Part shown: positions 243 to 37,601 of the stretch, one piece after another
How positions within the stretch are numbered: the first letter of the stretch is position 1
Layout: the number at the start of each line of letters is the position of its first letter
DNA from: Strigamia acuminata
Taxonomy: Eukaryota
Reading direction: 5' to 3'
NCBI GenBank assembly: GCA_949358305.1
Contig: OX442314.1
Location: 26,412,001-26,476,000, forward strand
DNA length: 64,000 nucleotides
Made by a program: the position numbers and the translations under genes
The notes under the pieces: generated by a model
Databases searched by the model: none
What the model saw: only the letters and a program-made list of their open reading frames with translations
What the model was told of the DNA's origin: nothing

Positions 243-1832
243 TGTGACGGTTACACTGTCATGCACTTTGTTAGTATAGGACGATTACTTCACCAATAGA
301 TGGCGCTGATGCGTTTTAGCGGTAAATTCAAATTTCGACAATTTTTGAGTGAATAAAATATAAATTACTATTTATATTTTATTCCACTGCAACTTTAGAC
401 ACTTTTAAATACTTTTGGATGTTCAAATGCTAGTTGATTTATTTGTCACATAATTCTATTGAATTATGTGCAAACTCTACACCTGGTGAAGTCACCCCCC
501 ATCACCCACTGTGAGTTGGACTCCTTTTGGATTATAGTCAAAGGGACTTAATCCAAAATGTGTCCTGCGTATCCAGTTCCTGTTTTGGACCTAGTAGAAG
601 ACTATGTCCTGAGTATCCACTTCCTATGACCTAGGATTGGATGGATTTGACTGCCCAGTGATCCCATTGGATCACTGAACAGCTATTCTCCTCACCGAGT
701 ATATATCCCCCTGCAAAACGGATATAGCTCGCTCTTGTTCTGTTTTTGTTTGATACTGATATTACTTGAGCACATATTATACTTCTCTGCGTTCCGACAA
801 TCCGTTGTAGAAATACTTTGTATTTAGTGTAAGTATCTAGAGTGGGTAGAAGACTCACAGACACACTGCCCGCCTCTTCATGCCAACATTCCGTTGTAGA
901 AATGTTGTAACTAGAGTGAGTAATTCACAGACACATTTAAGTGTAGTATCTAGAGTGGGGTACAACCCACAGACGCACTCCCTCCAGCTTCATGCCAACA
1001 TTCCGTTGTAGAGTGCAGAATCTAGAGTGGAGTAAAATTCACAGACGCATTGGTAATGTAGAATCTAGAGTGGAGTATTTATATTTCACAGACGCATTAT
1101 CAGAGTAATCGACGCGGAGTAATTTCCCGGTTACTCTCCCGCCAGCCAGGACCGAGTGGAGTAATTTCCCGGCGATGGATAACCTTTCCTGCGAGATATT
1201 TCGATTCAATTCGTTATTGGTTTGACGGAACATTTAAGTCTAACTTAGATGTTGATTGCACTCGGGGCAAAAAATAGCTCGGCGCTATTTTAATATATTT
1301 TACTTATTTTCATAGTTTTAGTTAAGTTTGTGACTCTAAAATATCATGATTAATTCCATAGAATTAATATGAATATTTATTCTCACATTGTTACATCTCG
1401 CGGTAATTATTGATTACAACAATTATCTGCGATGCGATGTGTGTGACGATACAGAAAAGTCAACCGCACCTCTCGGATATAACCCACCCAGCCTAACCAT
1501 TTACACGCCTTTTAGAACCAAACCCCGGACCATTTAGAAGCCAAAGCCATTCATAGATGACATCTTTTACGTCACAGCAATAAGACCGTTACAAATTCTT
1601 ATTGCATGACTGAAGCCTTCAAATGATATTATTTCAGGGCTTTTGCCAAACAACTGTATAGTTTAACTTCTCGTCATTTTAGCCACTTGTAGGCATAGTA
1701 TTTATATAAGGTTCAAACCGGAATAAATGTTATATGTTTTGAGAAAACATCAGGTTTGCATATTTTACATTTTCACACAGATAGTTCACACTTTAGTTTA
1801 GCAATTGCTATCTCCAGAAGGTAATCGTCACA
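243..1832 (+). repeat. 5' LTR of Gypsy element
   Basis: TG...CA ends, terminal inverted repeat tgtgacggttac/gtaatcgtcaca. No difference from the 3' LTR seen by eye; the ORF-track peptides are identical in both. Confidence 0.97.
1703..1727 (+). promoter_or_regulatory. Candidate LTR TATA box (TATATAAG, 1703-1710) and poly(A) signal (AATAAA, 1722-1727)
   Basis: Motifs and order typical of a U3/R boundary; implies a ~1.45-kb U3. Other AATAAA motifs exist in the LTR, so the assignment is inferred. Confidence 0.5.
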
Positions 1833-1834
1833 CG

Positions 1835-1852
1835 TGGAGGTTCTACCGAGAT
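1835..1852 (+). promoter_or_regulatory. Primer-binding site complementary to tRNA-Gln
   Basis: TGGAGGTTCTACCGAGAT, 2 nt after the LTR. Its reverse complement ATCTCGGTAGAACCTCCA matches the 3' end of animal tRNA-Gln plus CCA. Confidence 0.88.
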
Positions 1853-2710
1853 AGGTTGCATTTTATCGAAGTGAACTCTGTGATCAAAGTGTAAATTGAA
1901 AAATGAATTTTCTTGATTATTTTATATAGATATTATAATTAGAAAATTTCCGATTTTTCTCTATAGATTTACTGTGAAATATCCATTTGTTTTCAAAAAA
2001 ATTCTCATTATCTTTTGGAAATATCTGAATTCGAATTTTTGGATTATTTTGAAAAAAAACTCATTATAATTTCGAATCTCTTACGAAAAATCTATTATGA
2101 TTTTATTGAGTTTCCCAGAATATTCAGCTATATTCTGGAAAATTTCGAAACCTTGAATTTTGATCAAAAAACGAATTTGACTAGAAATCCTGCTGACTGA
2201 AAAATAAAAAGTTAAAGTATTTTATTTTGCTGGTTAAAAACTTGACCAAGTTTCTATTGTTCTGTTTTCAATGTTTTTGATTATTATTTTAATCTTTAAC
2301 AAAGTAAAGAATGTGACAAAGAGAACCACTCACGATGCAGCTCGGAGTAGGTCATCCAGATGTGACATTGTTGAGAATTTCGGATTAGAAATTATCAGGA
2401 ATTTTTCAACATCGCCAATCACAGCAGACTGTCTTGACAAAGGAGATTTTCCGGAAGCTAGTTTGACAACCAATATTCAGCCACACTTGCTTTTCGACAG
2501 TGCGACCATCCAGTTGTGCCTTTGTGACCAGTGCCCGTTTGGACCATTCTTGACCACGCAATAGGACAGTTTTTCCGAAGCCACTTCAGTTTCAGCAGCT
2601 AAGGTTGTATTTTTTCAAATTATTTCTTAGTTTAATATTAAGCGTGTTACATTTACGCTAGTTCAGTTAAAGTTTATTTTTTCTTTTGTACGTGTATTTC
2701 TTTGAGTATT

Positions 2711-4759
2711 ATGGCCCGTAGACCTGTAAGAGTTCGTGGAACACGAGGAAATCGTGGAGCACGACGACGTGGTGGTATGTGTGAAACACCAAGAGGAATT
2801 GTGGAGTCTGATCTAGAAAGCCAGGGGGAAGAAAATGTTCCTAGAGACGTTTCCAACCCAGGTAGTTCTCGAACGGATCCACTATCAGTCCCACATGATT
2901 TAGAAGTTTACTGTCGCCATTACCAATTGGAAGTGACGCAGTTTTCCTCTTTGTGTGAAGCTCAACAATACACGGCGAATAATCATCACGAGAGAAATCG
3001 TGTAATTACTCCCGATGTAGTTGTAACCAACGAACAAAGTGTTTCTGTAGATCGAACTGGCCCTCGTTCGCCGGCCACATATCGCTACCAGCAATTGCCT
3101 GGATGGCGAATGAATGTTGCTCGTGACGACAATGGGCAGTTAAATTCTTCACTATCTGTTCAACCTTTGATTCAGTTACCAACTAGTTCTTGGCGATCGA
3201 ATTCGGCCGAAAGAATGGGAAATTCCGGACAAAGAAATATTTCTGCGCCAATTTCCCGAAATTTACCAAGTGCGACGGCTGTAAATAATATTTTACCCGC
3301 TCCCACTGGGAATTTGAATGATTCTTTCAGAGTTCCACAGCCTCGAACTAATCTGTCGGTCCAACCAAGGGGGAGAAATGAAAATTATCAAAATTTTCAA
3401 TCTCACACCCAATCTGATGGAGATTTTAGGAATTATAGAAATTCCCGCTCTCAAGGTGGACGAGCTCCGCCGAGAAATCAACGATTTCCCGGAGCTCCTG
3501 GTGATCCGCGTGACTCCGATCCTAACTCGAGTAGTGACGAATCTCACGCTGGTGGAGGGGGAAATTATAACAATAATTTCCACCGACGTAATAATTCTCG
3601 TTCTCCACCGCCACCTGATAGACATCAAAATTTTCAAGGAGAGCCAAATCCGCCACCCAGAGACCAAGGAAGTCGGTCTACACCCAATTCGAACTCTGCT
3701 TCTAATTTGTCGGACGAAAATGTAAAACAAATTATTCAGGGTTTAGTTGGTCAAATCCGAAGCCCGAGTAATCCCAGTCAGAATTTTGGAAAAGGAATCG
3801 AGATTCCTATTTTTGACGGGAAACAGACAGAGGTTGCGCGATTCCTTGAAATCGTCAAAGCTGTCGCACTCGGGAAAGGCATCCCTTTAGACGACATGGT
3901 ACACACTGCTGTACCTGGACGACTATTAGGCCATGCACAACGTTGGTTCCATAAGCAACGCCATACTTTTAACAGTTGGCGAACTTTCGAAGCCTCTTTT
4001 CTCGATTGTTTCGACCTCGTTCCACTTACAAGAGAAAGGCGACTTCTTAATGTAAAACAACGAGCCGACGAGTCACTTTATAGTTTTCTTCTGCGTTATA
4101 CGCAAGAACAAGGTGAAGTGCCGCCAGGTGATAAAACTGGACGTGCGCAATTATTCGACAATTTAACTCAAGAAAGTTTCACGGCGTTATGTACACAAGG
4201 AATGTATGGTAACTTTACAGTAGATGACATTCTACAATATGTAGGAGCAAATCGCTCTAAGTTTGAAAGTTCTCAACTTGCAGCAAAATTGGAGTACGAT
4301 AATCGAGAGAATCATCCTACTCCCAAACTTCACGAAAAATCTAAGATTTTTCCATCTAAAACTTCACTACGTTTAACGCAAACTCAAGATGAAGTTGAAA
4401 ATGAAGACGAGTCGGAAAATGACGACTCAACTGACGATGGTTCAATGGAGCGATTATTTGCCGCCCAGTATGAAAAGACTACTGGAAAATGCTTTTTCTG
4501 TCACGAGCCTGGACATTTTAAAAGAGAATGTCCCGCCCTTGCCAAAAAATTAGCAGGGAAAACAGACTCGTTAAATTCAAATAAAAGATTTAACCACTCT
4601 GCTCCCAACCCCGAGTTTAAACGACCCAAACAAAATTGGGTTACGTCAGAAACTTTAGACTCCAAATTTACTGACTTCCAGAAAAACATGGTTGACCTGT
4701 TAATTAAGCATTTACCAGCAGCCACTGAGTCAGTCACTCCCGACGAGACAAAAAACTGA
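2711..4759 (+). CDS. gag: Gag polyprotein (Arg-rich N-terminus, long disordered region, capsid-like region, CCHC zinc knuckle)
   Basis: First ATG at 2711; capsid-like IPIFDG...LLGHAQRWF...W..F...FL; knuckle CFFCHEPGHFKREC. Confidence 0.92.
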   Translation: MARRPVRVRGTRGNRGARRRGGMCETPRGIVESDLESQGEENVPRDVSNPGSSRTDPLSVPHDLEVYCRHYQLEVTQFSSLCEAQQYTANNHHERNRVITPDVVVTNEQSVSVDRTGPRSPATYRYQQLPGWRMNVARDDNGQLNSSLSVQPLIQLPTSSWRSNSAERMGNSGQRNISAPISRNLPSATAVNNILPAPTGNLNDSFRVPQPRTNLSVQPRGRNENYQNFQSHTQSDGDFRNYRNSRSQGGRAPPRNQRFPGAPGDPRDSDPNSSSDESHAGGGGNYNNNFHRRNNSRSPPPPDRHQNFQGEPNPPPRDQGSRSTPNSNSASNLSDENVKQIIQGLVGQIRSPSNPSQNFGKGIEIPIFDGKQTEVARFLEIVKAVALGKGIPLDDMVHTAVPGRLLGHAQRWFHKQRHTFNSWRTFEASFLDCFDLVPLTRERRLLNVKQRADESLYSFLLRYTQEQGEVPPGDKTGRAQLFDNLTQESFTALCTQGMYGNFTVDDILQYVGANRSKFESSQLAAKLEYDNRENHPTPKLHEKSKIFPSKTSLRLTQTQDEVENEDESENDDSTDDGSMERLFAAQYEKTTGKCFFCHEPGHFKRECPALAKKLAGKTDSLNSNKRFNHSAPNPEFKRPKQNWVTSETLDSKFTDFQKNMVDLLIKHLPAATESVTPDETKN

Positions 4760-4797
4760 TTCAGGGGGTTGTTCAAGTTGCCCAACCCCCGCTTAAA
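4750..4797 (+). promoter_or_regulatory. -1 programmed ribosomal frameshift signal (gag-pol)
   Basis: A AAA AAC (4750-4756) in the gag frame just before TGA, a 7-nt spacer, then an 8-bp stem GGGGGTTG/CAACCCCC (4764-4790). Pol is in the -1 frame and open from the slip site. Confidence 0.88.
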
Positions 4798-7700
4798 GAG
4801 TTGTTTCCTTTCTCGGAATTGTCAAATGATTTATTTTTACGAAAAGATGAATTTAAATTAAGACATAAGCCTAGTCATCTCACAGTACCTTATGTCGATG
4901 ATTCGAAGAATAAACCACCATCGTTGGTCATTTCTTACGAAGCAGTACCTGTCTGTCGAAAGACTAGCAGCTCTACTGGCGGTGTCGATGAAAATTTAAA
5001 AGTCATGACAGACCAACTAGAAAATTTGAGTATTTTCAGTGGAAGCTGGAATGCACCCAAGAAACCGCTTGTACCCAAGGTTTTCAAGTTAAGAAAACTT
5101 CTTAAACTTGAAAAATGGAACAAGAAAGAACGAAAAGTATTGCTTGGCAAACTTTGCAATAGCAAATTAATTAATGGTGGCAAAGATGATCCGCGTATGA
5201 ATGTCCAAATTGGAGGTTTGGATTACAACGCACTAATGGACTCTGGAGCCACCCAATGTTTTATTGGAGTACAACTCCTCTCAAACACGGAAATTCCGGT
5301 GGAATTCATACAAGAATGTCCCCGGGGAATGCGTGTCTGCGCGGTCGGAATAGATCACCGACCTATCGGTCAAGTTTGTCTTTGTGTCAAATGGGCCGAT
5401 AAAAGGAGAGTTACACCTACGACCTTCATAATTCTACACAAGAATGTATGTGGGTTGATTTTGGGTCACAATTTTATGCGTAGAACGGGGATAAACCCTA
5501 ATCCCCGACGAGCAGTGTTCACCTGTGATGACATGCCCGGATGGACAGCCCCGTACGAGACCACTGAACTTAACTGTTGCTTAGCAAGCATTAAGACTTT
5601 GGGCCTCCAAGGTGAAGGAACTCCCACTTCACCGGACTGGGCAGAAAAACTCGTCGAAGGCTGCAACAGTTCGGCGGAAGAAAAACAGTTACTCGTAAAC
5701 GTTCTTGTACAATTAAAAAACGTATTTCGAGACCAATTGGGCTGTACGAAGGTTGCCAAGCACAGCATCAAGTTTAAACCTGGTGCTACTTGGAAACACC
5801 AGCCGTATAGAATGTACAATCCGGCCAAGAAGGCGATTATGACGGAATTGGTCGAGGAGTTAGAGGCCGATGGGTTAATCGAACCTGCCACTGGCCCTTA
5901 TATAAGTCACCCCGTCATAGTGGCTAAACCCGGCGGGAAGTATCGATTATGTATCGACTACCGCTGGTTGAATGCGATCACAGAAGTTGATGCAATTCAA
6001 ATGCCAAGTATTGACCTATTAATTCACCATACTAATCAGGCCAAGTACTTTACATCCATTGATTTAACTAAAGGTTATCATCAAATGGAAATGGAGGAGG
6101 AGGATAAGAGTAAAACTGCTTTTTACACCCCAAAAGGCAAATTTCAATTCAAAAGGTTGCCATTTGGTCTTTGTAATGCACCCAGCTCTTTTCAACACCT
6201 CATGACTACCGTATTGGGTGACTCTTTATATAAACATGCTCTGGTCTATTTAGACGATATAATTATTTTTTCCGACACATGGGAAAATCATTTATTACAT
6301 ATTAAAGACGTACTTGAGAAGTTGGATGCCGCGAATCTAACTATCAATAAAGACAAGTCAAAATTTGGTCGAACATCATTACGATTTTTAGGCCATTTAA
6401 TTTCGGAGGGATCTCTTCTTCCAGACCCTGACAAAGTCTCGGCTGTAAGGAATTTTCCCAAACCGACTTGCTCTAAAGACATTCAAAGATTTGTAGGACT
6501 TGCGAATTTTTTCCGAAAATTTATTCCTAACATCGCAAATATTGCTCGTCCATTGACCAATATTATGCATGATCAAGCAAAGTTTGTGTGGGATGATCCA
6601 CAAACAACTGCATTCGAAACTATCAAAGATATTTTGTGTGACAAGGACCAAGCCCTTCTCCACATGCCAGATATGAATAAGCCTTTTGTCATTTTGACAG
6701 ATGCTTCTCATTCAGGCTTAGGTGCAGTACTCTGCCAAGATGTCGAGTTATTCTGTGAAAAGAAACAGAAATTAATTATGGTCCCGAAAGCAGTCGCGTA
6801 CGCCAGTCGAGTGTTACACGGGGCCGAAGTAAGGTATTCTACGCCGGAATTGGAGTGTTTGGCCGTTGTATGGGCAATCGAGAGATTTCGCCCATATATA
6901 GAATACACGACTTTCACTCTCGAGTCCGATGCTAAAGCTCTTAGCTGGTTGATGAGTACGCCGGAACCATCCGGAAGGTTTGGTCGTTGGGCCGTCAAAA
7001 TACAATGTGGCGCGTTTAAAATTATTTTTAGACGCGGCGCAATGAACCAAGTAGCGGACGCATTATCACGCGCTCCACTGTCTGCACTAGACACTCCGGA
7101 TTATGATTATATCGAACCAGAGGAGATCACCCATTTCTATCCAACTTGGAATGGAAACAGGTGTGCATCTTTACAAGTGACGGAAACTGAGCGCAAACAT
7201 TTTCTTACAAATGTTGGCCTTAGTTTAGACTTTTTCTCAGAATCATATAATCCAGTTAGATTTCATGATTCTGGAGAAAAGGGGGAGGAAGAAGGATGTA
7301 CAAGAGAAAATTGCAGACATATAGATGTCCACAATTGTAATCACGAAAATGTACACACTGCGCTAACAGATATCCTAAAAGTAGTTCCGCCGACGCGAGA
7401 CGAAATTATCGAAGCGCAGCTTAAAGATCCAGCATGTAGTAAAATCCTTGTTTACCTAAAAGGAGACGAAAAATTAAAAAATCGTATCACGGATAAACAT
7501 TGGTTAAATGCGATTCGTGGCTACACTCTCGACGAACCGGAAGAAAATAAAGGTGTTATGCTAATTTATTTTGCTCCGACCGATGAGGAAGAGTTAAACG
7601 ACTCTGGCAACGGGTTTAAGGCGGTAATTCCACGCTCTCTCGTGAGACGTGCATTATTCGCATGCCATGGCCACCCACTTACAGGACACGCTGGCATGAG

Positions 7701-9036
7701 CAAAACCCTAGATAGAGCAAAACAGATGTATTTCTGGCCTAGAATGAGCAAAGACACTCGAAACTACGTTCGCAGTTGCACTCATTGCCAACAATACAAA
7801 CCTAGCCAACACCAAAAGCATCGGGCAAGCTATACACCTCACAACATGACCAACCCGTGGGAGACTGTAAGCATTGACCTGATGGGACCAAAACCAGCCG
7901 GTCGTTCACAATTAAAATGGATTTTAGTAATCATTGATAATTGTACAAAATGGATTGAAGTCTTCCCATTAGCGACTGCATCAAGTGAATGCATCGTTAA
8001 TAAAATGAGCGAAGTTTTCCACCGTTGGGGATATCCAAAAAAGATAATCTCCGACAACGGCAAACAATTCGTGTCAACAATATTTAATGATTTTTGTCGA
8101 AAAAATCACGTAGATATTGCTCACATTAGCCCATATCACGCTGCCGCTAATATTACAGAGCGGGCTAACAGGACTTTAAAAATGATGTTAGCTTTATACT
8201 CGGACATTCACTCCCACTGGCCAAAATACTTAAATTCTTTTGCCTTTGCGATGCGCACCGCTAAGTCCGAGGCAACAAATTGTTCACCGATGATTCTTAA
8301 TACGGGAAGAATCGTCCCTTTGCCATTTGACCCGCGTATTACTAAACACGCCATCAAATTCGACAAAGAGAATCCCGAAGCTTATGTCTATAGTATTTTA
8401 GACGTAATTAGACGTGCACACAGCGAAATGCATCGGAAAATTCAATCGAATTACGAAAAGCATGATCGACTACATAAAGACAAATATTATATTTGTCAAT
8501 TTGCCAAAGGAGATCTCGTGTGGAAAGCCACACATATTTTATCAAATAAAGATAAAGGGATTTCGGCAGGATTCGCTGAGAAACGTGATGGACCTTGGGA
8601 AATTACGGCTGTTCTCGGCGGAGGTTCCTACACACTACGTAAGCTTTCTGATAACACGAAAGCAAAAGCGATCAACATACAGGATTTAATGCCTTATATC
8701 CCAAGTTACCCAATTGAGGAATGGACATTAGATCAGAAAGTCGGTACCAACGAATCACACCCGACTCCAGATTGGATGGCAGGTCAGGTTATTAATTCTT
8801 CAGAATTAATAAATGAACCTGTGTCCATGGAAACAGAGGATTTAGTTGAAGAGAAAGAGGAGGAAACTTCTCAGATTTCTTCTAAAGAGGACGAAACTCC
8901 TCAAAATTCATCCAAAAAGAGGAAAAGATTTCCATCTCCCGTTCGACAGTCTAAACGTAGACCCAAGCCGAACACAAAATACGTGACCGATTTTGTACAA
9001 CTCGTAAATTGTCTAAAACAAGTCAAGTTGGGTTAG
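4753..9036 (+). CDS. pol: Pol polyprotein: aspartic protease, reverse transcriptase, RNase H, integrase
   Basis: ALMDSGAT (PR); YRLCIDYR, LPFGL, YLDD (RT); TDAS...ELECLAV (RH); H..H...CTHC zinc finger, IDLMGP/SDNG/TERANR (DDE) and GPW module (IN). No internal stops. Confidence 0.96.
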   Translation, partial: KLIQGVVQVAQPPLKELFPFSELSNDLFLRKDEFKLRHKPSHLTVPYVDDSKNKPPSLVISYEAVPVCRKTSSSTGGVDENLKVMTDQLENLSIFSGSWNAPKKPLVPKVFKLRKLLKLEKWNKKERKVLLGKLCNSKLINGGKDDPRMNVQIGGLDYNALMDSGATQCFIGVQLLSNTEIPVEFIQECPRGMRVCAVGIDHRPIGQVCLCVKWADKRRVTPTTFIILHKNVCGLILGHNFMRRTGINPNPRRAVFTCDDMPGWTAPYETTELNCCLASIKTLGLQGEGTPTSPDWAEKLVEGCNSSAEEKQLLVNVLVQLKNVFRDQLGCTKVAKHSIKFKPGATWKHQPYRMYNPAKKAIMTELVEELEADGLIEPATGPYISHPVIVAKPGGKYRLCIDYRWLNAITEVDAIQMPSIDLLIHHTNQAKYFTSIDLTKGYHQMEMEEEDKSKTAFYTPKGKFQFKRLPFGLCNAPSSFQHLMTTVLGDSLYKHALVYLDDIIIFSDTWENHLLHIKDVLEKLDAANLTINKDKSKFGRTSLRFLGHLISEGSLLPDPDKVSAVRNFPKPTCSKDIQRFVGLANFFRKFIPNIANIARPLTNIMHDQAKFVWDDPQTTAFETIKDILCDKDQALLHMPDMNKPFVILTDASHSGLGAVLCQDVELFCEKKQKLIMVPKAVAYASRVLHGAEVRYSTPELECLAVVWAIERFRPYIEYTTFTLESDAKALSWLMSTPEPSGRFGRWAVKIQCGAFKIIFRRGAMNQVADALSRAPLSALDTPDYDYIEPEEITHFYPTWNGNRCASLQVTETERKHFLTNVGLSLDFFSESYNPVRFHDSGEKGEEEGCTRENCRHIDVHNCNHENVHTALTDILKVVPPTRDEIIEAQLKDPACSKILVYLKGDEKLKNRITDKHWLNAIRGYTLDEPEENKGVMLIYFAPTDEEELNDSGNGFKAVIPRSLVRRALFACHGHPLTGHAGMSKTLDRAKQMYFWPRMSKDTRNYVRSCTHCQQYKPSQHQKHRASYTPHNMTNPWETVSIDLMGPKPAGRSQLKWILVIIDNCTKWIEVFPLATASSECIVNKMSEVFHRWGYPKKIISDNGKQFVSTIFNDFCRKNHVDIAHISPYHAAANITERANRTLKMMLALYSDIHSHWPKYLNSFAFAMRTAKSEATNCSPMILNTGRIVPLPFDPRITKHAIKFDKENPEAYVYSILDVIRRAHSEMHRKIQSNYEKHDRLHKDKYYICQFAKGDLVWKATHILSNKDKGISAGFAEKRDGPWEITAVLGGGSYTLRKLSDNTKAKAINIQDLMPYIPSYPIEEWTLDQKVGTNESHPTPDWMAGQVINSSELINEPVSMETEDLVEEKEEETSQISSKEDETPQNSSKKRKRFPSPVRQSKRRPKPNTKYVTDFVQLVNCLKQVKLG

Positions 9037-10343
9037 GACACAATATATTGAAAATATTTTATTTTAAATAAATATTTCCAATCATATTCACGAAGAATTG
9101 TTAAATTTTATTAATTAAAAACATTTTTTTTTGATGTGGATAAAATTTAACAAATGTTTGAGTTATTTTTTACACAAGCTGATTGTATTCAAATTAATCT
9201 ACGTGTAAACATTTACTTGAAACTGTGTTTCCCCCTTTGGGTTAATAGAAACTTCGAGATGAGTAATTACAAACCAATCAAATTACTCCTCGAAACTCCC
9301 CTTAACCCCTGGTTTGAGATTATCACTCACTTGTTCGCCAAGTTTTGTACTGGACTGAAATCAAGGATTATTCTCGACCCTTCGACGCTTTAACGGATTT
9401 TCGCTGAAATTTAGTGAGTTAAAATCTAGATGATTTTGAACACTTATCGTTTATTTTACTGATTTTTTCATTTGACAAATATCAGTTCAAATTCAGAAAT
9501 TATCGACACGACGCTGATTATCGAAACCATCTCGTGGACAAAATCGCGAGTAAGCCTTTCACGAACTCACTAAGTGAATTCCCGGTAAATATTTAAGCAA
9601 TATTTTGTCAAAATTTATAATATTTTGACATTAATTGACAACATTTATTTTGGTTAAGCGTTCATTACGGCGGACTTAGAATTCGCACGCGCCGCACAAC
9701 GTTTTTATCGGCCAACATCGCCGGAACCGAGCAGCCCTCGCAAATACGTGAAGCTAGACATTAAACTAGCCAAGTATACCCTTCTAGGACTACACCTAGT
9801 TAGTAAGTGTTTATTTTTTGAAAGATAAAATATCTCTTAAGTTCCTTGGAAATTGGTGAGCAGACATGGGTTAACAAGTCACGTGTATGATAGGGGCAAA
9901 CGCCACCAGATGTCGGTAGTAAATTATTTACTCGGACGAATTGTGGAATTATTCGTACAATTAAAACCATGTAAAATGACTATTGTCGGATGCTAAAAAA
10001 CACTTACAAAAATATTTTTTTTTTAATATTTTTATATGTTTTTTAGTTATTATGTCGTGTAGATACAAAAATTAGGTTTATTTCATTAAATAAACACTAA
10101 TTTGAATATTTTATCAGCGATATTGTGTTAAACGATAAAATGAAATTATATGCCAAGTCGAGAATAATTATTAATCTTAATAATTATTCGACAAATGGAG
10201 GAAACACGCTAACAAGGGAACTTAAGAATTAATTATGAAATTAATCCAGTTGTTGGTCGACAATTAATTTAATTTGAAATTAAATTAATTTCCGACGGTT
10301 GATTCATGTTCTCAAATAAAATTTATATTTTCTTGAAGATGCA

Positions 10344-11987
10344 ATGAGTCGCCGAGGTCGTGCTAGCAAGCGACAGTACGTGCATTGGGATCCAGAAGAA
10401 TCGGAAGAGACGGATTATCGCTTTGTTAATCCCTCCTCTGACCCCGAGCTCGTCGCCAACTGGGCCCGTGATAACCCGGATCTCGTACCGCCACGAATTA
10501 GGACCGCCATGGGTGTTAGCCCGACCGACTCGCGTCCTTCCAGAGGCCGTCAAGCTAGTCAGCGTGTTGTAACCTATGATGCGCCGAATTGGGATTTTTC
10601 TGACGACTCGTCACAATACTCCCGTTCTGCCTCGAGGAGACGGCGCCAAGATGACTTCTCACAAGAAGAAGAATCGGTTGAAGAAGCTCCGCCTCCAGCT
10701 ACCAGCAGGCAGTTTGCCCGACCACGAAATCCGCGTGATACCGCTAGTCGAGGCAAGACTGGCAAATCCAAAGGACCCACCAAGTCCACGTTGGCATCTT
10801 CATCCGAAGCGCTGACCCGCCCAACATCGCAAGCTCGTTCGATATCGGAGCTAAATTTGCCAAGTTACCGGAAGCAGCGAAGAGAACACGTATTTCGAGA
10901 TATGGAAGCTGCCGCCTTGGGGACTAACATCATGCCAAAGTCGAAGCTGATGTTCTGCCCATTGTGCGCAGGATGCGGATGGTTGTCGTCCTTGTTATCC
11001 GGCATTCACGCCGTAGTCTGCGTGAACTGTCACGGTGGTAAGCGCGTTGCCATATCCAGCATGTGGAATGAAGAAATTCTTCCATTTATCGTCAAGGGGC
11101 TAAGTACGCCGACAGCACGCAATTGGGCGATGTGTCGCGAATGTGGCCTCATCCACCAGGGCCCGGAGCAGGCTATTTATGTAGACCCGGCACAAATGTC
11201 CAGCACCTCGACTCCACGAGGAGGATTTACGGAGCCACAACGCGAGCCGGAAACTCCCACCCCTGCGATTGATGGAACTCCAGTTGCCTCGGCAGAAAAC
11301 CTTCCAACGTCAGTTATTGCGTCTGATTCTCCGCCGGTTGCATCCGATTCTGGTCCACAAGCCGCCGCTTCTCCAGAGGGAACGTCGACTAACAACATGA
11401 TTGTAGCGACTATCCCGCTCCCAGAAGCAAGCCACGCTGCTGAAACGGTTATTTTACTGGTCCACCCATATATGCCGAGACCAGACATGTCGCTCACGGA
11501 GCAAACTAAGGCGGAAGTGGAACATTATTTCCCAATTTTATTGGAAGCAGCTAAGCGTATTAGTGTGTCGATTTCAAACGACCGAATTCCAGATTTGAGC
11601 GTGCCACTGGCCGTGATCCAATGGATTTTCCATCCATCCCGGCCGGAATCTTTTCAAACTCGCTCTTTTATTTGGTGTAAGATTTTGCAACAGGTCTCAG
11701 CAGCAGCACACCCGTTGATTCGTGAGGGATGGCACTCCGGCTTACCCGACCATCACTTGGTTTTCTCCGAGCCAACCAGCGCTAACACCATTCCGTTAGG
11801 AGGGCCTGATCCCCTGGAAGTATTCACCGAGGAACAACACAGAATGCTCCTGAATCCCCTGGCCCATGACGTTGAGACAGATGTAGTACCGGAATTGGTA
11901 GCTATTCAACTTAATTCTCCACCCGCAGCCGTCTCGGAAGTTGTTACATCCATGGAAGGATTTATTGAGGATGAAGAGTTGGACTAG
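10344..11987 (+). CDS. Accessory ORF3 (547 aa) in the env position; Arg/Ser-rich N-terminus, Cys clusters, acidic C-terminus; function unknown
   Basis: Long, GC-richer ATG-initiated ORF inside the element. Contains CPLCAGC, CVNCH and CRECGLIH; no evident signal peptide or TM helix. Confidence 0.85.
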   Translation: MSRRGRASKRQYVHWDPEESEETDYRFVNPSSDPELVANWARDNPDLVPPRIRTAMGVSPTDSRPSRGRQASQRVVTYDAPNWDFSDDSSQYSRSASRRRRQDDFSQEEESVEEAPPPATSRQFARPRNPRDTASRGKTGKSKGPTKSTLASSSEALTRPTSQARSISELNLPSYRKQRREHVFRDMEAAALGTNIMPKSKLMFCPLCAGCGWLSSLLSGIHAVVCVNCHGGKRVAISSMWNEEILPFIVKGLSTPTARNWAMCRECGLIHQGPEQAIYVDPAQMSSTSTPRGGFTEPQREPETPTPAIDGTPVASAENLPTSVIASDSPPVASDSGPQAAASPEGTSTNNMIVATIPLPEASHAAETVILLVHPYMPRPDMSLTEQTKAEVEHYFPILLEAAKRISVSISNDRIPDLSVPLAVIQWIFHPSRPESFQTRSFIWCKILQQVSAAAHPLIREGWHSGLPDHHLVFSEPTSANTIPLGGPDPLEVFTEEQHRMLLNPLAHDVETDVVPELVAIQLNSPPAAVSEVVTSMEGFIEDEELD

Positions 11988-12633
11988 AAAGCGTCAACGA
12001 TGTCGGGATCCGTTACTTTCCCGATATCTTCCCTTTTAAGGCAAGACCAGAAGTAACGAGTCCATTTTCTCCATCTCCATTTCTTGACCCGAGTTGAAAC
12101 AAAGATTTAGTCAGGTTCAGGTGTATTTTATGCCGTTTTTGTGAATAATTCAAAGATCTTTAATATTTAAATTAACAATTTTGTTAAAATTTGATTACGA
12201 GTCAATGTGAGTTTGTTTAAATGAATACTAATTTTAATACTTGAATTTTAACGTGTAAAGTGTTATTTTGCAAATCATTATATTTCCAGTGAGAAGTTAA
12301 GTTTTGTGAAAATAATTGTTAAATTTTATTAATCATTTGTTTGGTACAAGAGTTTGATGTTAGTTTAAGTTATCGCCTTTTCTTGATGCAGTTGTAAGTC
12401 CACCTGTAAAGAGAGATGGAAGCTATTATTGATAATTGAAAGTTTTATAACCTTAATAAATATTTTTTGAAGCATTTGATTAAGAAATACTCTTTATTTA
12501 TACTATTAAGATATAAAATAAAGGTTTTTGCTTACCAAGGATTACAGCTCGAGTCCCCTAGATGACAGTGTGGTCTTGATCCTCAAGATATTCGGAATAA
12601 ATAGTATGTTAATACAGGTATTAACATATATTT

Positions 12634-12641
12634 AAGGGGGA
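12634..12641 (+). promoter_or_regulatory. Polypurine tract
   Basis: AAGGGGGA 2 nt before the 3' LTR TG. Confidence 0.7.
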
Positions 12642-12643
12642 CT

Positions 12644-14233
12644 TGTGACGGTTACACTGTCATGCACTTTGTTAGTATAGGACGATTACTTCACCAATAG
12701 ATGGCGCTGATGCGTTTTAGCGGTAAATTCAAATTTCGACAATTTTTGAGTGAATAAAATATAAATTACTATTTATATTTTATTCCACTGCAACTTTAGA
12801 CACTTTTAAATACTTTTGGATGTTCAAATGCTAGTTGATTTATTTGTCACATAATTCTATTGAATTATGTGCAAACTCTACACCTGGTGAAGTCACCCCC
12901 CATCACCCACTGTGAGTTGGACTCCTTTTGGATTATAGTCAAAGGGACTTAATCCAAAATGTGTCCTGCGTATCCAGTTCCTGTTTTGGACCTAGTAGAA
13001 GACTATGTCCTGAGTATCCACTTCCTATGACCTAGGATTGGATGGATTTGACTGCCCAGTGATCCCATTGGATCACTGAACAGCTATTCTCCTCACCGAG
13101 TATATATCCCCCTGCAAAACGGATATAGCTCGCTCTTGTTCTGTTTTTGTTTGATACTGATATTACTTGAGCACATATTATACTTCTCTGCGTTCCGACA
13201 ATCCGTTGTAGAAATACTTTGTATTTAGTGTAAGTATCTAGAGTGGGTAGAAGACTCACAGACACACTGCCCGCCTCTTCATGCCAACATTCCGTTGTAG
13301 AAATGTTGTAACTAGAGTGAGTAATTCACAGACACATTTAAGTGTAGTATCTAGAGTGGGGTACAACCCACAGACGCACTCCCTCCAGCTTCATGCCAAC
13401 ATTCCGTTGTAGAGTGCAGAATCTAGAGTGGAGTAAAATTCACAGACGCATTGGTAATGTAGAATCTAGAGTGGAGTATTTATATTTCACAGACGCATTA
13501 TCAGAGTAATCGACGCGGAGTAATTTCCCGGTTACTCTCCCGCCAGCCAGGACCGAGTGGAGTAATTTCCCGGCGATGGATAACCTTTCCTGCGAGATAT
13601 TTCGATTCAATTCGTTATTGGTTTGACGGAACATTTAAGTCTAACTTAGATGTTGATTGCACTCGGGGCAAAAAATAGCTCGGCGCTATTTTAATATATT
13701 TTACTTATTTTCATAGTTTTAGTTAAGTTTGTGACTCTAAAATATCATGATTAATTCCATAGAATTAATATGAATATTTATTCTCACATTGTTACATCTC
13801 GCGGTAATTATTGATTACAACAATTATCTGCGATGCGATGTGTGTGACGATACAGAAAAGTCAACCGCACCTCTCGGATATAACCCACCCAGCCTAACCA
13901 TTTACACGCCTTTTAGAACCAAACCCCGGACCATTTAGAAGCCAAAGCCATTCATAGATGACATCTTTTACGTCACAGCAATAAGACCGTTACAAATTCT
14001 TATTGCATGACTGAAGCCTTCAAATGATATTATTTCAGGGCTTTTGCCAAACAACTGTATAGTTTAACTTCTCGTCATTTTAGCCACTTGTAGGCATAGT
14101 ATTTATATAAGGTTCAAACCGGAATAAATGTTATATGTTTTGAGAAAACATCAGGTTTGCATATTTTACATTTTCACACAGATAGTTCACACTTTAGTTT
14201 AGCAATTGCTATCTCCAGAAGGTAATCGTCACA
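12644..14233 (+). repeat. 3' LTR of Gypsy element
   Basis: Direct repeat of 243-1832, followed by TSD AACT. Confidence 0.97.
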
Positions 14234-16205
14234 AACTAACAGAATCAAGTGGACAAAACGTTCAATGGTTAATTCGTTGCTTCCAGTAGTTTTGGTGGTT
14301 TCGATTAATATTTTTTCATATACTTTCAGTATTCTAGTTGTAATTTTTTTGTTCGATTGATAAGCACGACGAGAAATTGCTGGTCCGATCGCTGCCCAAA
14401 CCCGACGAGTTAAAGTTTGTCCTATTGCCATTAAGGATAACAAAGATAGTCCCAATGAGAATCCCAGATTTCCTCCGAAATCTATTAACAATGCAATTGT
14501 GTCGTAAGTATATTCTTCAGTCAGAAGCAGATATGTTTCTTCGGATTGAAGCGCATATAATACGATTTTATTTTTGTCTTTTTTTGGTAATCTCTCTACA
14601 GCGACTCTTGTCATGTACATGTGCTTCGTGCAAGGTCTTAGGCACCCACAATCTAACGTTGCTACGGTTGTTAATTCAAGTTGGTAGGCATTCTTATGAA
14701 TTTCAAAAACTTTGCTTTTGTTTATAAAATCACTGCAATCTGGAATGCTGCTATTAAATGCCATGTAGGGTAACCTAAAATGATGAGAAAAGCCTGTATT
14801 TCTTGTTCTCCGATTGGTGAACGCAATTAAATAAATCGTCATAGGATTTGGCCCGATAGTTGATGGTTCGTGCGCTTTTGTAGCTGAATTGAGTACATGA
14901 GTAAATGGCAGATACCCAGCACGGTGCCAGACTGCTAGTAACCCTCAAGGAAGGGGCGCTCTTGTGTGTTTAGCACAAAATGTAAAATTGGCAGTATTGT
15001 ATCTCGTTCACTAAATTGTGACCGTGTTCAAGTTCGCGTTCATGATCATGACCATGTGAACACGTTCGTGTTCGCATTCACTAATTTTTTTTTAGAAGTT
15101 AACTAAGTTCAAGTTCATAAACTTGAATCAAAAGTTCACGTTCATTTTTCAGAATTTTTTTTAGAAATTAAAATGTTTTTTGTTACATTTTGTGGATTGA
15201 AGATAACAAAAAAAAAAACACTTTTTTTTAGTAAAGCAGTCATTTTCATCGCTTTCATGGCTGTTTTTGTTGTAAAAAGTGATTGGAAATGAATGTTTTG
15301 ATGATAAAAATGTCATCTAAACATTTAAACTAACATTTTTGCAACGTTTTCATCATCAAACTTGGTGAACGTGAACTTCATTCAAGTTCACTTCTAAAAG
15401 TGAACGAATTTCGAATTTTTCATTCATCTGTAAAAGTGAGCTAGTTCACGAACACTGACAATTGGATGTTAGTATTAGAAACGGGTCTGATAATTCACGT
15501 AGTATGAAACCTTGTTAGGTTTTTTCTACAGTGGGTCTGGCCCACAGAGGATCCTCATTTCGGAGAAATCAGTTTTTAACAGTTTGTTTGGACAAAGACT
15601 GGTGATTAGGTTTGGGTCCCAAAGCAGCAGTCCAAACTTTGCACTTATTCTGACGACAGAGCCGTGTAACGATATCTAGCTAATTTTATTGTAAATAAAC
15701 GATAACTGACCGACATTCACTCTGTTCCAATCTTGCTAAACATTCTTGGTAACACTTAATCTGAGCTTCTTTGTCCGATTCACAATTAGGTTTGTTTAAC
15801 GGTAAAAAATTATACTAGAAATTAAAAAAAAAAATTACGGTAAAAACTAAATTTTTTTTTATAAAAAATATAAATTACTTGTCGCAGAAAGAAGTAAAGT
15901 GAGGCCTTATTGCCTACTGACACTGGTAATGCATATTGAAATGGCATTATAGGGTTGTCAGGTGCTATCTACAAGTATAAGAAAATAAAGAAATAAACTC
16001 CAAACCTATTAGACAGCTAAAGAGTTTGGGAAATATTACTTTTGTTAAGGCGAAAATAAGACCATTTTAATAGGTATTAATGACATTTTCACTCAGACGT
16101 TTAGATTTAAAAATTTTAAAAAGAAAGTGTAAATTTGTACAAGCTTAGTACAATGATTCGTTTGCATGTGGGATAATGAGATGATACAGTAACAAAAACG
16201 GCCAC

Positions 16206-26785: not shown

Positions 26786-28150
26786 GTATTTTAATTTTTG
26801 AATGCAGCTAGTGTCTGGAAAAATCTAGTAAAATAAGAAATTTCTTTTCATTTTCTCACAAAAATATCAAATTCTTATTCAACGCTGAAGCAGCAAGAAT
26901 AAAATATTGTGTTTTTTGACAGCTTGTGAACACTTTTGAAAAAGGAACGGTAATTATAATATTAACTCTGCAGTCACATACCTCGACAAATTTCTGCATT
27001 AAGGATTTATCCACTTTTGGCTTCTGAGAGTCCCACAGTTTTTTTAGCAACGATAAAGGCTTTGAAGTGTTCAGTAAATCAATAAAATGAACATCGCAAT
27101 GGTTTTTGCTTATCTTTTTTGCATATCTTATCCGTAATGTAGTCATCAAATGGCTATCCCCACAAGCAATTACATTGGGCAAGTACAGAGTGCCATTTTC
27201 CACAACTGTGACTACCATTTTTGTAGGTTCACTACAGTACAGTTGTACTTTCATCACCGCCAAAATAGTTGCAAGTACGATGCTCACAACTAACACAATT
27301 AAATGGCCAATACGTTCAATGGTTAATTTCTTGTTTGCACTAGTGTTAGTGGTTTCGATTAATATATTCTCATACACTTTCTGTATTCTAGTTTTAATTT
27401 TTTTGTTCAATTGATAAGCACGACGAGAATTTGCTGGTCTGATCGTTGCCCAAAGCCGACGAGTTAAAGTTTGTCCTATTGCCATTAAGAATCCCAAATT
27501 TCCTCCGAAATCTATTAACAATGCAATTTTGTCGTAAGTATACTCTTCGGTCAGAAGCAGATATGTTTCTTCGGTTTGTAACGCATATACTTGTAATACG
27601 ATTTTATTTTTGTCTTTTTCTGGTAATTTCTCTACAGCGATTCTTGACATGTACATGTGCTTCGTGCAAGGTCTTCGGCACCCACAATCTAAAGTTGCCA
27701 CGGTTGTTAATTCACGTATGTATGCGTTCTTATAAATTGCAGGAACTTTGCTTTTGTTTTTCAAATCAGTGCAATCTGGAATGCTGCTATTATATTCCAT
27801 ATAGGGTAACCTAAAATGAAGAGTAAAGTCTGTATATTCTGGTCTCTGATTGGTGACCACAAATTAATTTTTGCAATTTTTAAGTTAATGCTCTTCTTCC
27901 GAACATCGTCACAGAATTTGCTCCGACAGCTCATAGGTCTTGTTAAAAACAACCAGTAAAGCAACGTTTCTATTGTATGGTTTTCAGTCCAGAATACTGG
28001 TAAATGCCTAACTATGGATGTGTGAGATTATTTTGCTTTTGTCTCTGATATAATTTAATTTTTGGGTTTTAAGAATTAATGACTTTTAAATTTGTTTATT
28101 TTTATTAAATCGACAAATTATGACGAATTTCTTATAACAGAATCCTCTAT

Positions 28151-31921: not shown

Positions 31922-32303
31922 GTGCTCAGGACCAGCTCTCCCAAGTGTACTCTTAACTGCGCAAAATTGAAGATGCGTTTGTGAAGATTCGCAAAGTCGA
32001 TTTGTAACTAATTTTGACTAAAACTGTGTAAATTTACTACTTTTCTAACTTTTATGAATTCTCGAAATAAAGCATGTCTTTTTTGGGTTAAGAACAAGTT
32101 TATTGTAATTTCTGGGGGTCACAAGTACAAATTCAGGGGAACAAAGGGTGAAACAAGATAATTTATGACACTTTTACAGCACTTCCGGTCACGCGTCATT
32201 CAATATCACTCAAAAACACCTCCTGCAGGTTGGCTTCTCTGTGCTGCGCCGTGCTCTTTCCCTCGAACTCGTGCGACCTTGTTACTTCTAACAACGCCAG
32301 TTT

Positions 32304-35300
32304 TCACACTGGGGCCGGAGTGGTATCACCACTCAACTCTTCCATGTCGTGAGTTTCCAGAACGCACAATCGCTGTACTGGTCGACGCAAGTTCTTTCCG
32401 ACTGGTAACTTTATCTCACATGCGCGAACACGACCGTCTCGTCCACGGAATATCTCAACGACTCTTCCTATTTTCCAGGTCATCCTGGGCTGGTTTAACT
32501 CTTCTACGAGAACTACATCTCCTTGTTTAACTTCTCGTGAATTCTTATCATTTTTACGGTGAACTCTCAGCTCGGTGAGATATTCCTTTTGCCATCGCGT
32601 CCACCAATGTCCTAACTTCAGTTGACGGAGTTTCCAACGCTTCAAAATCGTGACTGATGTCGATGGCAACTGTTGAATCGTTTTTTGGCTGGGGTCTGGC
32701 AAAGTACAGCTTCGTTTTCCGACCAGAAAATGAGCTGGAGTGAGTGGGTGAGTGTCTTCGTCTTCAGTGTATACGTAGGAGAGTGGTCGCGAATTTATGC
32801 ACGACTCGACTTCCGAGAGAATGGTTGTCAATTCTTCAAAATCTAGGGATGACTTTCCCAAGACTTTTTTCAAGCTGGACTTAGTTGACTTCACCATTCG
32901 CTCCCAAAAGCCACCCCACCACGGTGCACGTTCGACTATATACTGCCATTTCACGCCTCGTTCGGTCAGAAATCCTTGTATCTGTTCGCCTCTCACTGCA
33001 TTCAACAAAACACAAAGTTCTTTCTCTGTTCGCTTGAACGTCAGCGCATTGTCGGAGTAGATCGTGCTTGGGACTCCTCTGCGCGCAAAAAATCGTTTCA
33101 ATGCCTGAATGAATCGCTCCGTATTCATGCTTGAAACTAATTCCAAGTGCACGGCTCGAACAACCGCACACGTGAACACGACGATGTAGCATTTTTCTCC
33201 ACTACGTTGGTACAATGGGCCCGCGAAGTCGACTCCAACGACTTGAAATGGCTCAGCTTGAGTGACACGATCTGGTGGCAACGATGATTCTGTCTGGCGC
33301 ACGAAACGTCCTTGCACTCGCTTGCACACGAAACATTTGTGTAACACGCTTTTTACTGTCCTTCTCAGCTTTGGCATCCAAAACTTTTGACGAATTTCTG
33401 CCAAAGTCTCTCCAAGTCCACCGTGGAAAATTCTTTGATGTGCTTCTGAAACGATAAGAGTGGTTAAAATGTGATTTGAGGGCAAAACATAAGGATTTTT
33501 CATGTTGCTGTCGATTTTTGCCCATCGCAATCTGGTATTCAATCGCATTAAACCATTTTCGTCTATATAACACGAGACTTTGTTCAAAAAAGAGTTATGA
33601 GCGAACTCCTGACGATGGCTGAGTGCTGCGAGTTCTGTTGCAAAGTTCGATTGTTGCATTACACGAAGCCAATAAAGCTCTGCTGCCGATAATTCATTCA
33701 CCGTCAACGGTGCGCCATTTCTAACTTTGTCTCTGGTGTTTTTGACGAATCTTTGCACCCATCCGGTCACTCGTACTAATTGTCTCCAGCTGCCGTATTT
33801 TGATGGCTCGTCCATCAATGGTGGCTCTGGAATCACGGCTGCTGCTGCCAAATAGTCCTCTGAATCGATCTCGTCGCTATTCTCGTCTATTTTAATGTCT
33901 GGCCATTCGTTCTCGTCCTTCACAAGCCACTCGGGGCCATTCCACCACGTATTCGCTTGAATCAACGCCTCTGCATCTATCCCTCGTGTTAGAAGGTCTG
34001 CTGGATTCTGGACTCCTGGACAGTGTCGCCAACTCGAAAAAGGTACGTGTATCTGGATTTCCTCCACTCTCCTGGCTACGAATGGAATGGCTTTCCTTTT
34101 CTCGTTCAACCAACACAAAACGATTGTCGAATCTGTCCAAGCTGTAACTTTTGCAGTGGTGAATTGTTTCAGTCTGTGCGCAATTCTGGCCAGCAGCAAA
34201 GCTCCCATCAACTCGAGTCTGGGCAACGTAATCGTCTTAATTGGCGCGATCCTGCATTTGGAAAGAATAAAAAATACATTACAACTTCCATTTGGGTGAC
34301 GCACACGATTGTACGCCACCACCCCGTACGCTAAGGGGCTCGCATCACAAAACAGATGGATTTCGTGATTATTCAATTCTGCATCCAAGCCAAAATGTCG
34401 TGGCACGCAAATATTTTCCAACAATGGCAACTGCTTTTTCCATTTCTCCCACTGTTCGAGAAGTTCGAGGGAGAGACGACTGTCCCATCCAATCTGCAAT
34501 TTCCACAACTGCTGGAAAAACAGCTTTCCTGAAACTGTAAACGGCGACGCAAATCCTAACGGATCGAAGATCTGTGCAACCAATTGAATAACCTGCCGTT
34601 TAGTGTTCGATTCACGTTCCAAAGTTGCTTTCACATCCTCGAGTTCTAGTGACAAGTCGTCTCTCTCACCATTCCACTTCAGGCCCAACACTTTTTGCTC
34701 ATTTTCGAACGTTGCAGTTGGATGGTCAACAGCAAATTGCTCTCGTAGCACTGGGGAATTGCTGTACCACTTCACTAGTTCCATATTGGCTTCGAGCATG
34801 ATTGTTGACGTCTTCTTGTAGACATCAATGGCTTCTGTTGTTGTCTTTTCACTGTTCAAAAAGTCATCAACATAAAATCTCTTTAACAATTTCATAATTA
34901 ATTCGGGAAAACGATCTGCATATTGTTCGAGATGGTGTTGTATCGTTCCGTTCAAGAGATAGGGACTTGGAGATGCTCCAAATAGGACTCTGGTTTGTCG
35001 GAGAATCTCCAACACGATTGGTCCTTCAACGTCCCATCCATCCGCGATCCACAGAAACCTCACCGCATCTCGGTCAGCTAACGCCAGCAAAATTTGATGA
35101 AACGCTTGTTTAATGTCTCCAATCAATGCCACAATGAATTGTCTGAAAAATAAAAGGGCATTGATTAATTCTGGAAGGAGATTTGGCCCTGTAAACAGGC
35201 AGTCGTTGAGAGAGCGACTCTTCTGCGCGTGCGACGAGGCGTCGTAGACTATGCGCAATTTTGTGGTGCTTCTCCGCTCTCGAATTACTGGTCGATGTGG

Positions 35301-37502: not shown

Positions 37503-37583
37503 CTTGAAATTTTCGGTCAAAATTCGGCGTGGTCGGCTTTACGATGCTGTTTTCTACTTATTTCTGTCCGGATTCACTGATTT

Positions 37584-37601
37584 TCCCGGGTTTCGGCACC
37601 A
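37584..37601 (-). promoter_or_regulatory. BEL primer-binding site complementary to tRNA-Phe
   Basis: The minus strand reads TGGTGCCGAAACCCGGGA directly after the 5' LTR; the plus strand TCCCGGGTTTCGGCACCA is the tRNA-Phe 3' end. Confidence 0.9.

What the first reader, a model, noticed from the sequence alone, without database searches (positions are those of the whole stretch)
10344..11987. Non-env third ORF: candidate regulatory protein of a 'complex' retrotransposon
Seen: an intact 547-aa ORF in the env position with no signal peptide or TM segment. It has Arg-rich motifs (MSRRGRASKR, SRRRRQ, RKQRRE), Cys clusters (CxxCxxC, CxxCH, CxxCxxxH), a Pro/Ser/Thr linker, a helical-looking domain and an acidic tail. 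Known: Arg-rich plus Cys-rich accessory proteins in complex retroviruses (Tat, Rev, Rex) bind structured viral RNA, and some transposons encode anti-silencing factors. Inference: ORF3 and the U3 hairpin array may form a trans-factor/cis-element pair.
Basis: partly seen in the sequence, partly recalled or inferred. Interest (0 to 1): 0.78.

Follow-up and report, generated by a model that had tools for sequence, protein, structure and literature searches.

The report
Centipede-type retrotransposon's conserved zinc-finger third gene
An intact, recently inserted jumping gene carries, where an envelope gene would sit, a third gene that is kept by selection and shared with related centipede elements, and that likely encodes a zinc-binding nuclear protein helping the element express or export its own RNA.

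Summary
ORF3 (10344-11987, 547 aa) is real. It lies between pol and the 3' LTR of an intact 14-kb Ty3/Gypsy element with identical 1,589-bp LTRs. It is not an envelope gene: no membrane segment, signal-like start or N-glycosylation site.

Two new results. Among family copies it is under strong purifying selection (32 of the 40 listed variants synonymous, 12 expected). Its only homologues are in three Strigamia maritima gene models, each downstream of closely related pol sequence. They conserve a basic helix plus six-cysteine module (CxxCxxxG-type knuckles, not CxxCxxC) and, in two models, a second domain.

The Tat/Rev/Rex analogy is weaker than proposed. Arg density and NES-like motifs are at chance level. 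LTR hairpins are real (z -7.1), but the pol-ORF3 spacer has hairpins too, and nothing links ORF3 to them. No fold or family was found.

Best reading: a nuclear zinc-binding trans-regulator of its own element, most likely CERV-like genomic-RNA export (0.35). The main rival is DNA-level activation or anti-silencing through LTR repeats (0.3). Non-env ORF3s, including one export factor (CERV), are known in Gypsy elements, so this is an unnamed protein family of a known kind.

The parts
243..1831 (+). 5' LTR, 1,589 bp, TG...CA ends, identical to the 3' LTR
   Evidence: self-BLAST 240-1832 vs 12641-14233 at 100%; sequence
280..760 (+). Hairpin cluster in the LTR (inferred U3); second copy at 12681-13161
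   Evidence: z -7.10, 0 of 100 shuffles as good; 100-nt window scan
764..1172 (+). Direct-repeat block in the LTR: a 15-nt unit in 5 copies, a 16-nt unit in 4 copies, a 112-bp tandem; weakly folded; unit number varies among family copies
   Evidence: z -1.63; joints inside the block
1834..1851 (+). Primer-binding site; tRNA-Gln-like by recall, not tested
   Evidence: sequence; no tRNA gene in the window to compare
2711..4759 (+). gag, 682 aa, long disordered Arg/Asn/Pro-rich N-half, CCHC knuckle
   Evidence: zf-CCHC E 5e-4, Retrotrans_gag E 0.0045
4729..9036 (+). pol (PR-RT-RH-IN) in the -1 frame, catalytic motifs intact; slippery heptamer at 4750 followed by a stem-loop (predicted -1 frameshift)
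9037..10343 (+). AT-rich pol-ORF3 spacer (31% GC, 18 ATGs) with long hairpins, ending in a pyrimidine tract and AG five bases before the ORF3 ATG (splice-acceptor-like, inferred)
   Evidence: 9940-10345 folds at z -3.90
10344..11987 (+). ORF3, 547 aa, non-env accessory gene
10872..11216 (+). ORF3 conserved module, residues 177-291: basic helix (K177, R179, R180, E181, R185), then CxxC-x17-CxxC-x34-CxxC(xxxH); predicted zinc-binding
   Evidence: 34 of 88 invariant positions lie in residues 171-295; 31-32% identity to Strigamia models
11445..11738 (+). ORF3 second conserved domain, residues about 368-465, mostly helical, fold unknown
   Evidence: aligned to P0004 within a 279-aa, 26% match, E 1e-21; 16 invariant positions in 366-470
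11988..12643 (+). 3' untranslated spacer ending in the polypurine tract
12644..14232 (+). 3' LTR; 4-bp target duplication AACT at 239-242 and 14233-14236
   Evidence: empty site in 3 of 4 runs

Best explanation
ORF3 is a selected accessory gene of a Ty3/Gypsy lineage shared with the centipede Strigamia, and it likely encodes a nuclear, zinc-binding protein that would bind the element's own RNA and promote export or use of the unspliced genomic transcript, as CERV does for Cer1. Shown: the gene is intact, under purifying selection, conserved behind related pol genes, and not an envelope. Inferred, step by step: (1) ORF3 is made from a spliced or internally started RNA, because it lies 1.3 kb and 18 ATGs past pol behind an acceptor-like site; (2) the full-length RNA then retains an intron and needs help to leave the nucleus; (3) basic patches take the protein to the nucleus; (4) the basic helix with the six-cysteine module binds zinc and nucleic acid, and the second domain recruits a host partner; (5) the target is a structured part of the element's RNA, either the 3' LTR hairpins or the spacer hairpins, which only the unspliced RNA would carry. 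Steps 1-5 are all untested.
For: Selection: 32 of the 40 best-supported variants are synonymous against 12.0 expected, p 8.5e-11, rough pN/pS 0.11. After thinning to one site per 60 nt, 15 of 17 are third-position. All 21 variants in residues 1-295 are synonymous, and the listed indels in the ORF net to frame-keeping changes. Conservation: the only hits among 1.84 billion representatives are two Strigamia models (names). A third came independently from a Pol search. The integrase groups with Strigamia elements at 100/100. Non-secreted anatomy also holds in the homologues (hydropathy maxima 0.8-1.09), and two of them have a basic cluster near their start. Precedent: CERV is 517 aa, lies partly in an ORF once taken for env, has a Cys-rich domain and a further globular domain, and is needed for gRNA export (PMC10309623). 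The Rex response element lies in the 3' LTR (PMC7551171). Structured RNA candidates exist in the LTR and spacer.
Against: No arginine-rich motif above chance; 6 NES-like matches against 5.1 in shuffles. Cys spacing differs from CERV's C193/C195/C200/C269, and CERV was not among the hits. The hairpins are not specific to the LTR (5.7 per kb in LTR, 6.1 in spacer, 2.2 outside), and LTRs can hold hairpins for other reasons. Splicing and the LTR boundaries are inferred only. The three homologues are close to each other, so conservation is nearly a pairwise comparison. The 40 variants are the best supported of 130 rows from unphased contigs and are not independent events.
Confidence: 0.35

Rival explanations
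1. ORF3 would be a DNA-level activator or anti-silencing factor: the zinc module binds the short direct repeats in the LTR, and the acidic tail or second domain recruits transcription or demethylation machinery, as foamy-virus Tas or plant VANC do.
For: The LTR holds a block of short direct repeats whose number varies among copies and which folds weakly. The tail is acidic. Strigamia methylates its silent transposons (PMC6673714). VANC acts through a tandem motif in its own element (PMC6719617). Foamy viruses place tas between env and LTR and have an internal promoter (PMC7828637, figure legend).
Against: No motif is shared between the LTR and the spacer beyond shuffles. The acidic tail is not seen in the homologues, whose gene models may be cut there (1 invariant position in 471-547). 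LTR repeats are commonly host-factor enhancers (general knowledge). No known DNA-binding domain matched.
Confidence: 0.3
2. ORF3 would be an intracellular adaptor for another step: particle assembly or trafficking, integration targeting, or binding and disabling a host restriction protein, with no role for the hairpins.
For: Two conserved domains joined by disordered linkers fit an adaptor. CxxCxxxG knuckles also occur in protein-binding zinc fingers (weak Pfam GRXCR1-2_C, E 0.11). Gypsy ORF3s have varied functions (PMC5408684; PMC6431247). A Strigamia Copia family carries a captured targeting domain (PMC6673714).
Against: No similarity to Gag, Pol or any known adaptor. The conserved basic helix beside the Cys module suggests nucleic-acid contact (inference).
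Confidence: 0.27
3. ORF3 is a highly diverged envelope or fusion protein.
For: Env position and probable spliced expression; one RxRR-type site at residue 98.
Against: No hydrophobic segment in ORF3 or in three homologues, no sequon, no env family in Pfam.
Confidence: 0.03
4. ORF3 is a passenger: a captured host fragment or chance frame with no function for the element.
For: No family, fold or Atlas match.
Against: Strong purifying selection; conservation at 26-32% identity in the same position in Strigamia elements; no host homologue.
Confidence: 0.03

Closest known systems
Strigamia maritima Gypsy gene models T1IMA5, T1IH97, T1IRW1 (P0001, P0002, P0004)
   Same: True homologues: pol fragments 40-62% identical to this Pol, followed by the same Cys module (26-32% identity), and in two models the second domain.
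   Different: They are automatic gene models that join pol to ORF3 and are named only for their pol domains; they have two extra Cys in the first knuckle loop; their N-terminal regions barely align. No description of this ORF was found.
CERV of C. elegans Cer1 (PMC10309623; abstract, sections 9, 15, part 1 of 10, and passages read)
   Same: Ty3/Gypsy accessory protein of similar size, encoded partly in the env position, spliced, non-env, with a Cys-rich domain and a further globular domain.
   Different: Different Cys spacing, no detected homology; CERV shares exons with gag and has a G-protein-like domain; its function is shown, ORF3's is not.
Retroviral Rev/Rex/Rec and their response elements (PMC7551171, passages read)
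   Same: Possible logic: a trans factor from a spliced RNA acting on a structured cis element; the Rex element lies in the 3' LTR.
   Different: ORF3 lacks a dense arginine-rich motif and a convincing NES; it is also much larger (sizes recalled).
Non-env ORF3s of bdelloid Juno/Vesta elements, planarian Burro and plant Ogre extra ORFs (PMC5408684, PMC6431247; passages read)
   Same: A lineage-specific third ORF that is not env.
   Different: Those carry GDSL, DEDDy, TM or apoptosis domains, or are of unknown function; none matched here in Pfam.
VANC of Arabidopsis VANDAL transposons (PMC6719617, passages read) and foamy-virus Tas (PMC7828637, figure legends only)
   Same: Element-encoded accessory proteins acting on their own element's DNA; tandem motifs are present in this LTR.
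   Different: No homology detected; VANC belongs to DNA transposons of plants.

Membership tests
Ty3/Gypsy (Metaviridae) LTR retrotransposon | pol domain order PR-RT-RH-IN with intact catalytic motifs | tested here: met
   Pfam; best solved relative Ty3 Gag-Pol, E 3e-105; motifs
Ty3/Gypsy (Metaviridae) LTR retrotransposon | TG...CA LTRs, target duplication, PBS, PPT, gag with CCHC knuckle | tested here: met
Envelope/fusion protein (errantivirus-type env) | signal peptide and transmembrane anchor | tested here: not met
   maximum 19-residue hydropathy 1.55, in the Cys region; homologues 0.8-1.09; hydropathy scan only, no dedicated predictor
Envelope/fusion protein (errantivirus-type env) | N-glycosylated ectodomain; homology to a viral fusion family | tested here: not met
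   0 sequons; no env family in Pfam
Rev/Rex-type export factor | dense arginine-rich RNA-binding motif | tested here: not met
   best 17-aa window 5 Arg; 509 of 1000 shuffles reach it
Rev/Rex-type export factor | leucine-rich nuclear export signal | tested here: inconclusive
   6 pattern matches vs 5.1 in shuffles
Rev/Rex-type export factor | binds a structured response element and exports unspliced RNA | not testable with these tools
   structured candidates exist; binding untested
CERV family | M-domain Cys pattern C193/C195/C200/C269 | tested here: not met
   ORF3 has CxxC-x17-CxxC-x34-CxxC vs paper
CERV family | sequence homology; G-protein-like C-terminal domain | tested here: inconclusive
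   not among the hits, but no direct comparison with CERV was made; models too poor for a fold test
DnaJ-type CxxCxGxG finger / zinc ribbon | paired CxxCxGxG-like knuckles binding one zinc | tested here: inconclusive
   two knuckles with a conserved Gly after each; Pfam GRXCR1-2_C E 0.11 and zinc-ribbon families E 0.13-0.79, all under cut-off; motif name recalled
GDSL or DEDDy ORF3 of bdelloid elements | SGNH or DEDDy catalytic domain | tested here: not met
   no such family in Pfam or NCBIfam for the whole ORF or its domains; a degenerate fold is not excluded
VANC/Tas-type DNA-binding activator | sequence-specific binding to repeats in its own element | not testable with these tools
   repeats present; none shared with the spacer

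The most novel reading that the evidence does not exclude
A myriapod Gypsy lineage has independently evolved a complex-retrovirus-style regulatory pair: a new zinc-module protein family (ORF3) that recognises a hairpin array in its own RNA to license export of the unspliced genome. It would be a second invertebrate Rev/Rex analogue after CERV, unrelated to it in sequence, and the first with a candidate response element.
Probability: 0.18. Interest if true: 0.8.

Novelty: new variant of a known kind. Interest (0 to 1): 0.5.

Why it matters
Few accessory proteins of animal LTR retrotransposons have a known job; among the papers searched, CERV was the only Gypsy export factor found. This ORF defines an unnamed two-domain protein family kept by selection in an apparently active, multi-copy lineage shared with a centipede whose transposons are methylated. 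It is a ready test case for how such elements export unspliced RNA or evade silencing. If it only proves to be one more orphan ORF3, it still corrects annotation, since public gene models fuse it to pol and leave it unnamed.

Tried and rejected
Word-indexed homologue searches found nothing with ORF3 alone or with alignment A2. One search missed even the proteins the alignment came from, so these blanks are weak. Longer and shorter length classes were not searched.

The Atlas gave no usable hit for the whole protein or residues 165-295. PDB sequence searches with A2 and A4 found no ORF3 match. Viral and metagenome contig scans with Pol, ORF3 or A2 confirmed no locus, so no relative's DNA, LTR or hairpins could be read. 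No genome is held for this window.

AlphaFold2 models had mean pLDDT 38 and 35. The second used 3 sequences and was made before P0004 was aligned. Fold searches gave best Z 5.1 (rmsd 3.3, 88 aligned) and 6.5 (rmsd 5.5, 79 aligned), and 0 viral matches at E<=0.001, which means nothing either way. A homodimer prediction of residues 170-478 with zinc returned 'no answer'.

No RNA holder was listed among the sequencing runs. Rfam gave only a sub-threshold chance match. Run X6 covered 12 of 30 bins and was not used.

An SGNH-like reading of the second domain, suggested by eye, found no support in profiles. ORF3 as a second Gag was rejected (best E 0.56). CpG content does not single out the element. 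The integrase tree left out P0001 and P0002 (short matches) and has no named clade references, so no Gypsy clade is assigned. PMC13269885 and PMC12440569 (passages) added nothing.

Full report
The element. The window holds an intact Ty3/Gypsy retrotransposon at 243-14232. Its two 1,589-bp LTRs are identical, begin TG and end CA, and are flanked by a 4-bp duplication. A primer-binding site follows the 5' LTR (tRNA-Gln-like by recall) and a polypurine tract precedes the 3' LTR. gag (2711-4759) overlaps pol (4729-9036) in the -1 frame, with a slippery heptamer and stem-loop at 4750, and the catalytic motifs are intact. The element splits a coding exon of a host DEG/ENaC gene: the two flanks match contiguous parts of a paralogue at 27050-27867. 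The empty site is present in 3 of 4 laid runs, so the insertion is recent and not fixed. Contigs of runs X1-X3 cover all 30 bins of the element, many at 90-99% identity, which points to a multi-copy family; the depths are not copy numbers.

The observation. ORF3 is as described: 10344-11987, 547 aa, chance about 1e-10. It has no hydrophobic segment above 1.55, no signal-like start and no N-glycosylation sequon. It lies behind a 1.3-kb AT-rich spacer with 18 ATGs that ends in a pyrimidine tract and AG just before the start codon, which suggests a spliced or internally started RNA (inference). The Arg motifs exist but are not unusual: 5 Arg in the best 17 residues, matched by 509 of 1000 shuffles; NES-like patterns number 6 against 5.1. 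The LTR hairpin cluster is real (280-760, z -7.1). The neighbouring repeat block folds weakly (z -1.6), and the spacer is also structured (z -3.9; 6.1 hairpins per kb against 5.7 in the LTR and 2.2 outside the element).

Selection. One search listed the 40 best-supported of 130 variant rows over the ORF3 region in three runs from two studies; all 40 fall inside the ORF. Thirty-two are synonymous against 12.0 expected, p 8.5e-11, rough pN/pS 0.11. Thirty-one are third-position, 15 of 17 after thinning, and only 4 of 40 are in CpG. All 21 variants in residues 1-295 are silent; the 8 replacements lie in the linker, the start of the second domain and the tail. For comparison, 12 of 18 listed pol variants are synonymous. 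Listed indels inside the ORF net to frame-keeping changes (a 12-nt insertion; paired one-base loss and gain with matching depths). Two larger deletions at low depth show that defective copies exist. These are unphased contigs mixing copies and alleles, so the figure is not a formal dN/dS.

Homologues. phmmer over 1.84 billion representatives gave 2 hits, E 2.5e-12 and 3e-11, both Strigamia maritima gene models. A separate search with the integrase region returned 16 proteins, the top three from Strigamia at 51-54% identity. One of them, P0004, also carries the ORF3 homologue, 26% over 279 residues, E 1e-21. So 3 of 5 Strigamia models in hand have ORF3 sequence downstream of pol pieces; the other two end inside pol and say nothing. 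The 12 non-Strigamia Pol proteins have none, but they are Pol frames only. The integrase groups with the Strigamia elements at 100/100. The host is therefore likely a centipede or near relative (inference). Conserved parts are a basic helix at 177-185, six cysteines (205, 208, 226, 229, 264, 267) with nearby Gly, Trp and Pro, H271 in 2 of 3 homologues, a Thr-Pro at 290-291, and a second domain at about 368-465. C211 and H230 are not kept. The first four cysteines look like a pair of CxxCxGxG-type knuckles (motif name recalled; Pfam matches sub-threshold). The three homologues are near each other, so this is close to a pairwise comparison.

How it likely works. The anatomy is disordered basic arm, zinc module, linker, helical domain, acidic tail, with no membrane route. 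That fits an intracellular and probably nuclear regulator of the element's own life cycle. I rank RNA export first (0.35). A spliced ORF3 message would leave the genomic RNA with a retained intron, and the one functionally studied Gypsy protein of this type that I found, CERV, solves exactly that with a Cys-rich domain (PMC10309623). The response element could be the 3' LTR hairpins, as for Rex (PMC7551171), or the spacer hairpins, which only unspliced RNA would carry. DNA-level activation or anti-silencing through the LTR repeats is nearly as likely (0.3): Strigamia methylates transposons (PMC6673714) and VANC works through tandem motifs (PMC6719617). An adaptor for another step takes 0.27; env and passenger readings are nearly excluded. 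Nothing here shows binding to RNA, DNA or zinc.

What is known. Non-env third ORFs are known in Gypsy elements (PMC5408684; PMC6431247), and earlier unchecked notes of this scan report several others in other genomes. Paper searches (listings seen) found no description of this centipede ORF. Subscription journals and repeat databases were not searchable, so an annotation may exist there. A survey of env-bearing elements lists one pol-env element for Strigamia in a supplement table (PMC13524379); I could not tell which lineage it is. ORF3 fails the tested features of env, of Rev/Rex (arginine motif) and of CERV (Cys pattern), so it is filed as none of them, though it may work like CERV.

Verdict. 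New variant of a known kind; interest 0.5.

Noticed in passing
window 31980-37930: A BEL/Pao element on the - strand (1,582-aa ORF) with identical 329-bp LTRs and a 5-bp target duplication; it also interrupts sequence paralogous to the DEG/ENaC gene region, so two neighbouring channel paralogues each carry a recent LTR insertion.
   Followed up: partly
window 26856-27860 (-) and 1-242 / 14233-14842 (-): In both DEG/ENaC paralogues the frame runs on past the last membrane segment into what looks like the start of a second channel unit, suggesting tandem (concatenated) subunits.
   Followed up: no
window 1443-1576 (and +12401): Inside the LTR, a 134-bp stretch starts and ends with the same 7-bp inverted termini as the whole LTR, like a nested mini-LTR or an old LTR end; no target duplication seen.
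   Followed up: no
window 10157-10190 and 10256-10296: Two long AT-rich hairpins in the spacer are each closed by a CpG-bearing stem; the spacer has CpG observed/expected 1.6 despite 31% GC.
   Followed up: partly
window 2271-2564 (+): A 97-aa ATG ORF in the 5' leader with a hydrophobic start, lying over a GC-richer block that ends at a donor-like site near 2602; a candidate small upstream ORF or leader exon.
   Followed up: no
window 2711-2780: Gag begins with 8 Arg in 17 residues, denser than any part of ORF3, ahead of a 330-residue disordered region.
   Followed up: no
window 40284-49372 and 57580-58047: Host exons: a multi-exon gene with Ser/Pro/Arg tandem repeats (CPLANE1-like by recall, untested) and a WD40 exon (WDR36-like by recall, untested); 30-bp and 21-bp satellites at 41453-42864, 55892-56395 and 62202-62628.
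   Followed up: no
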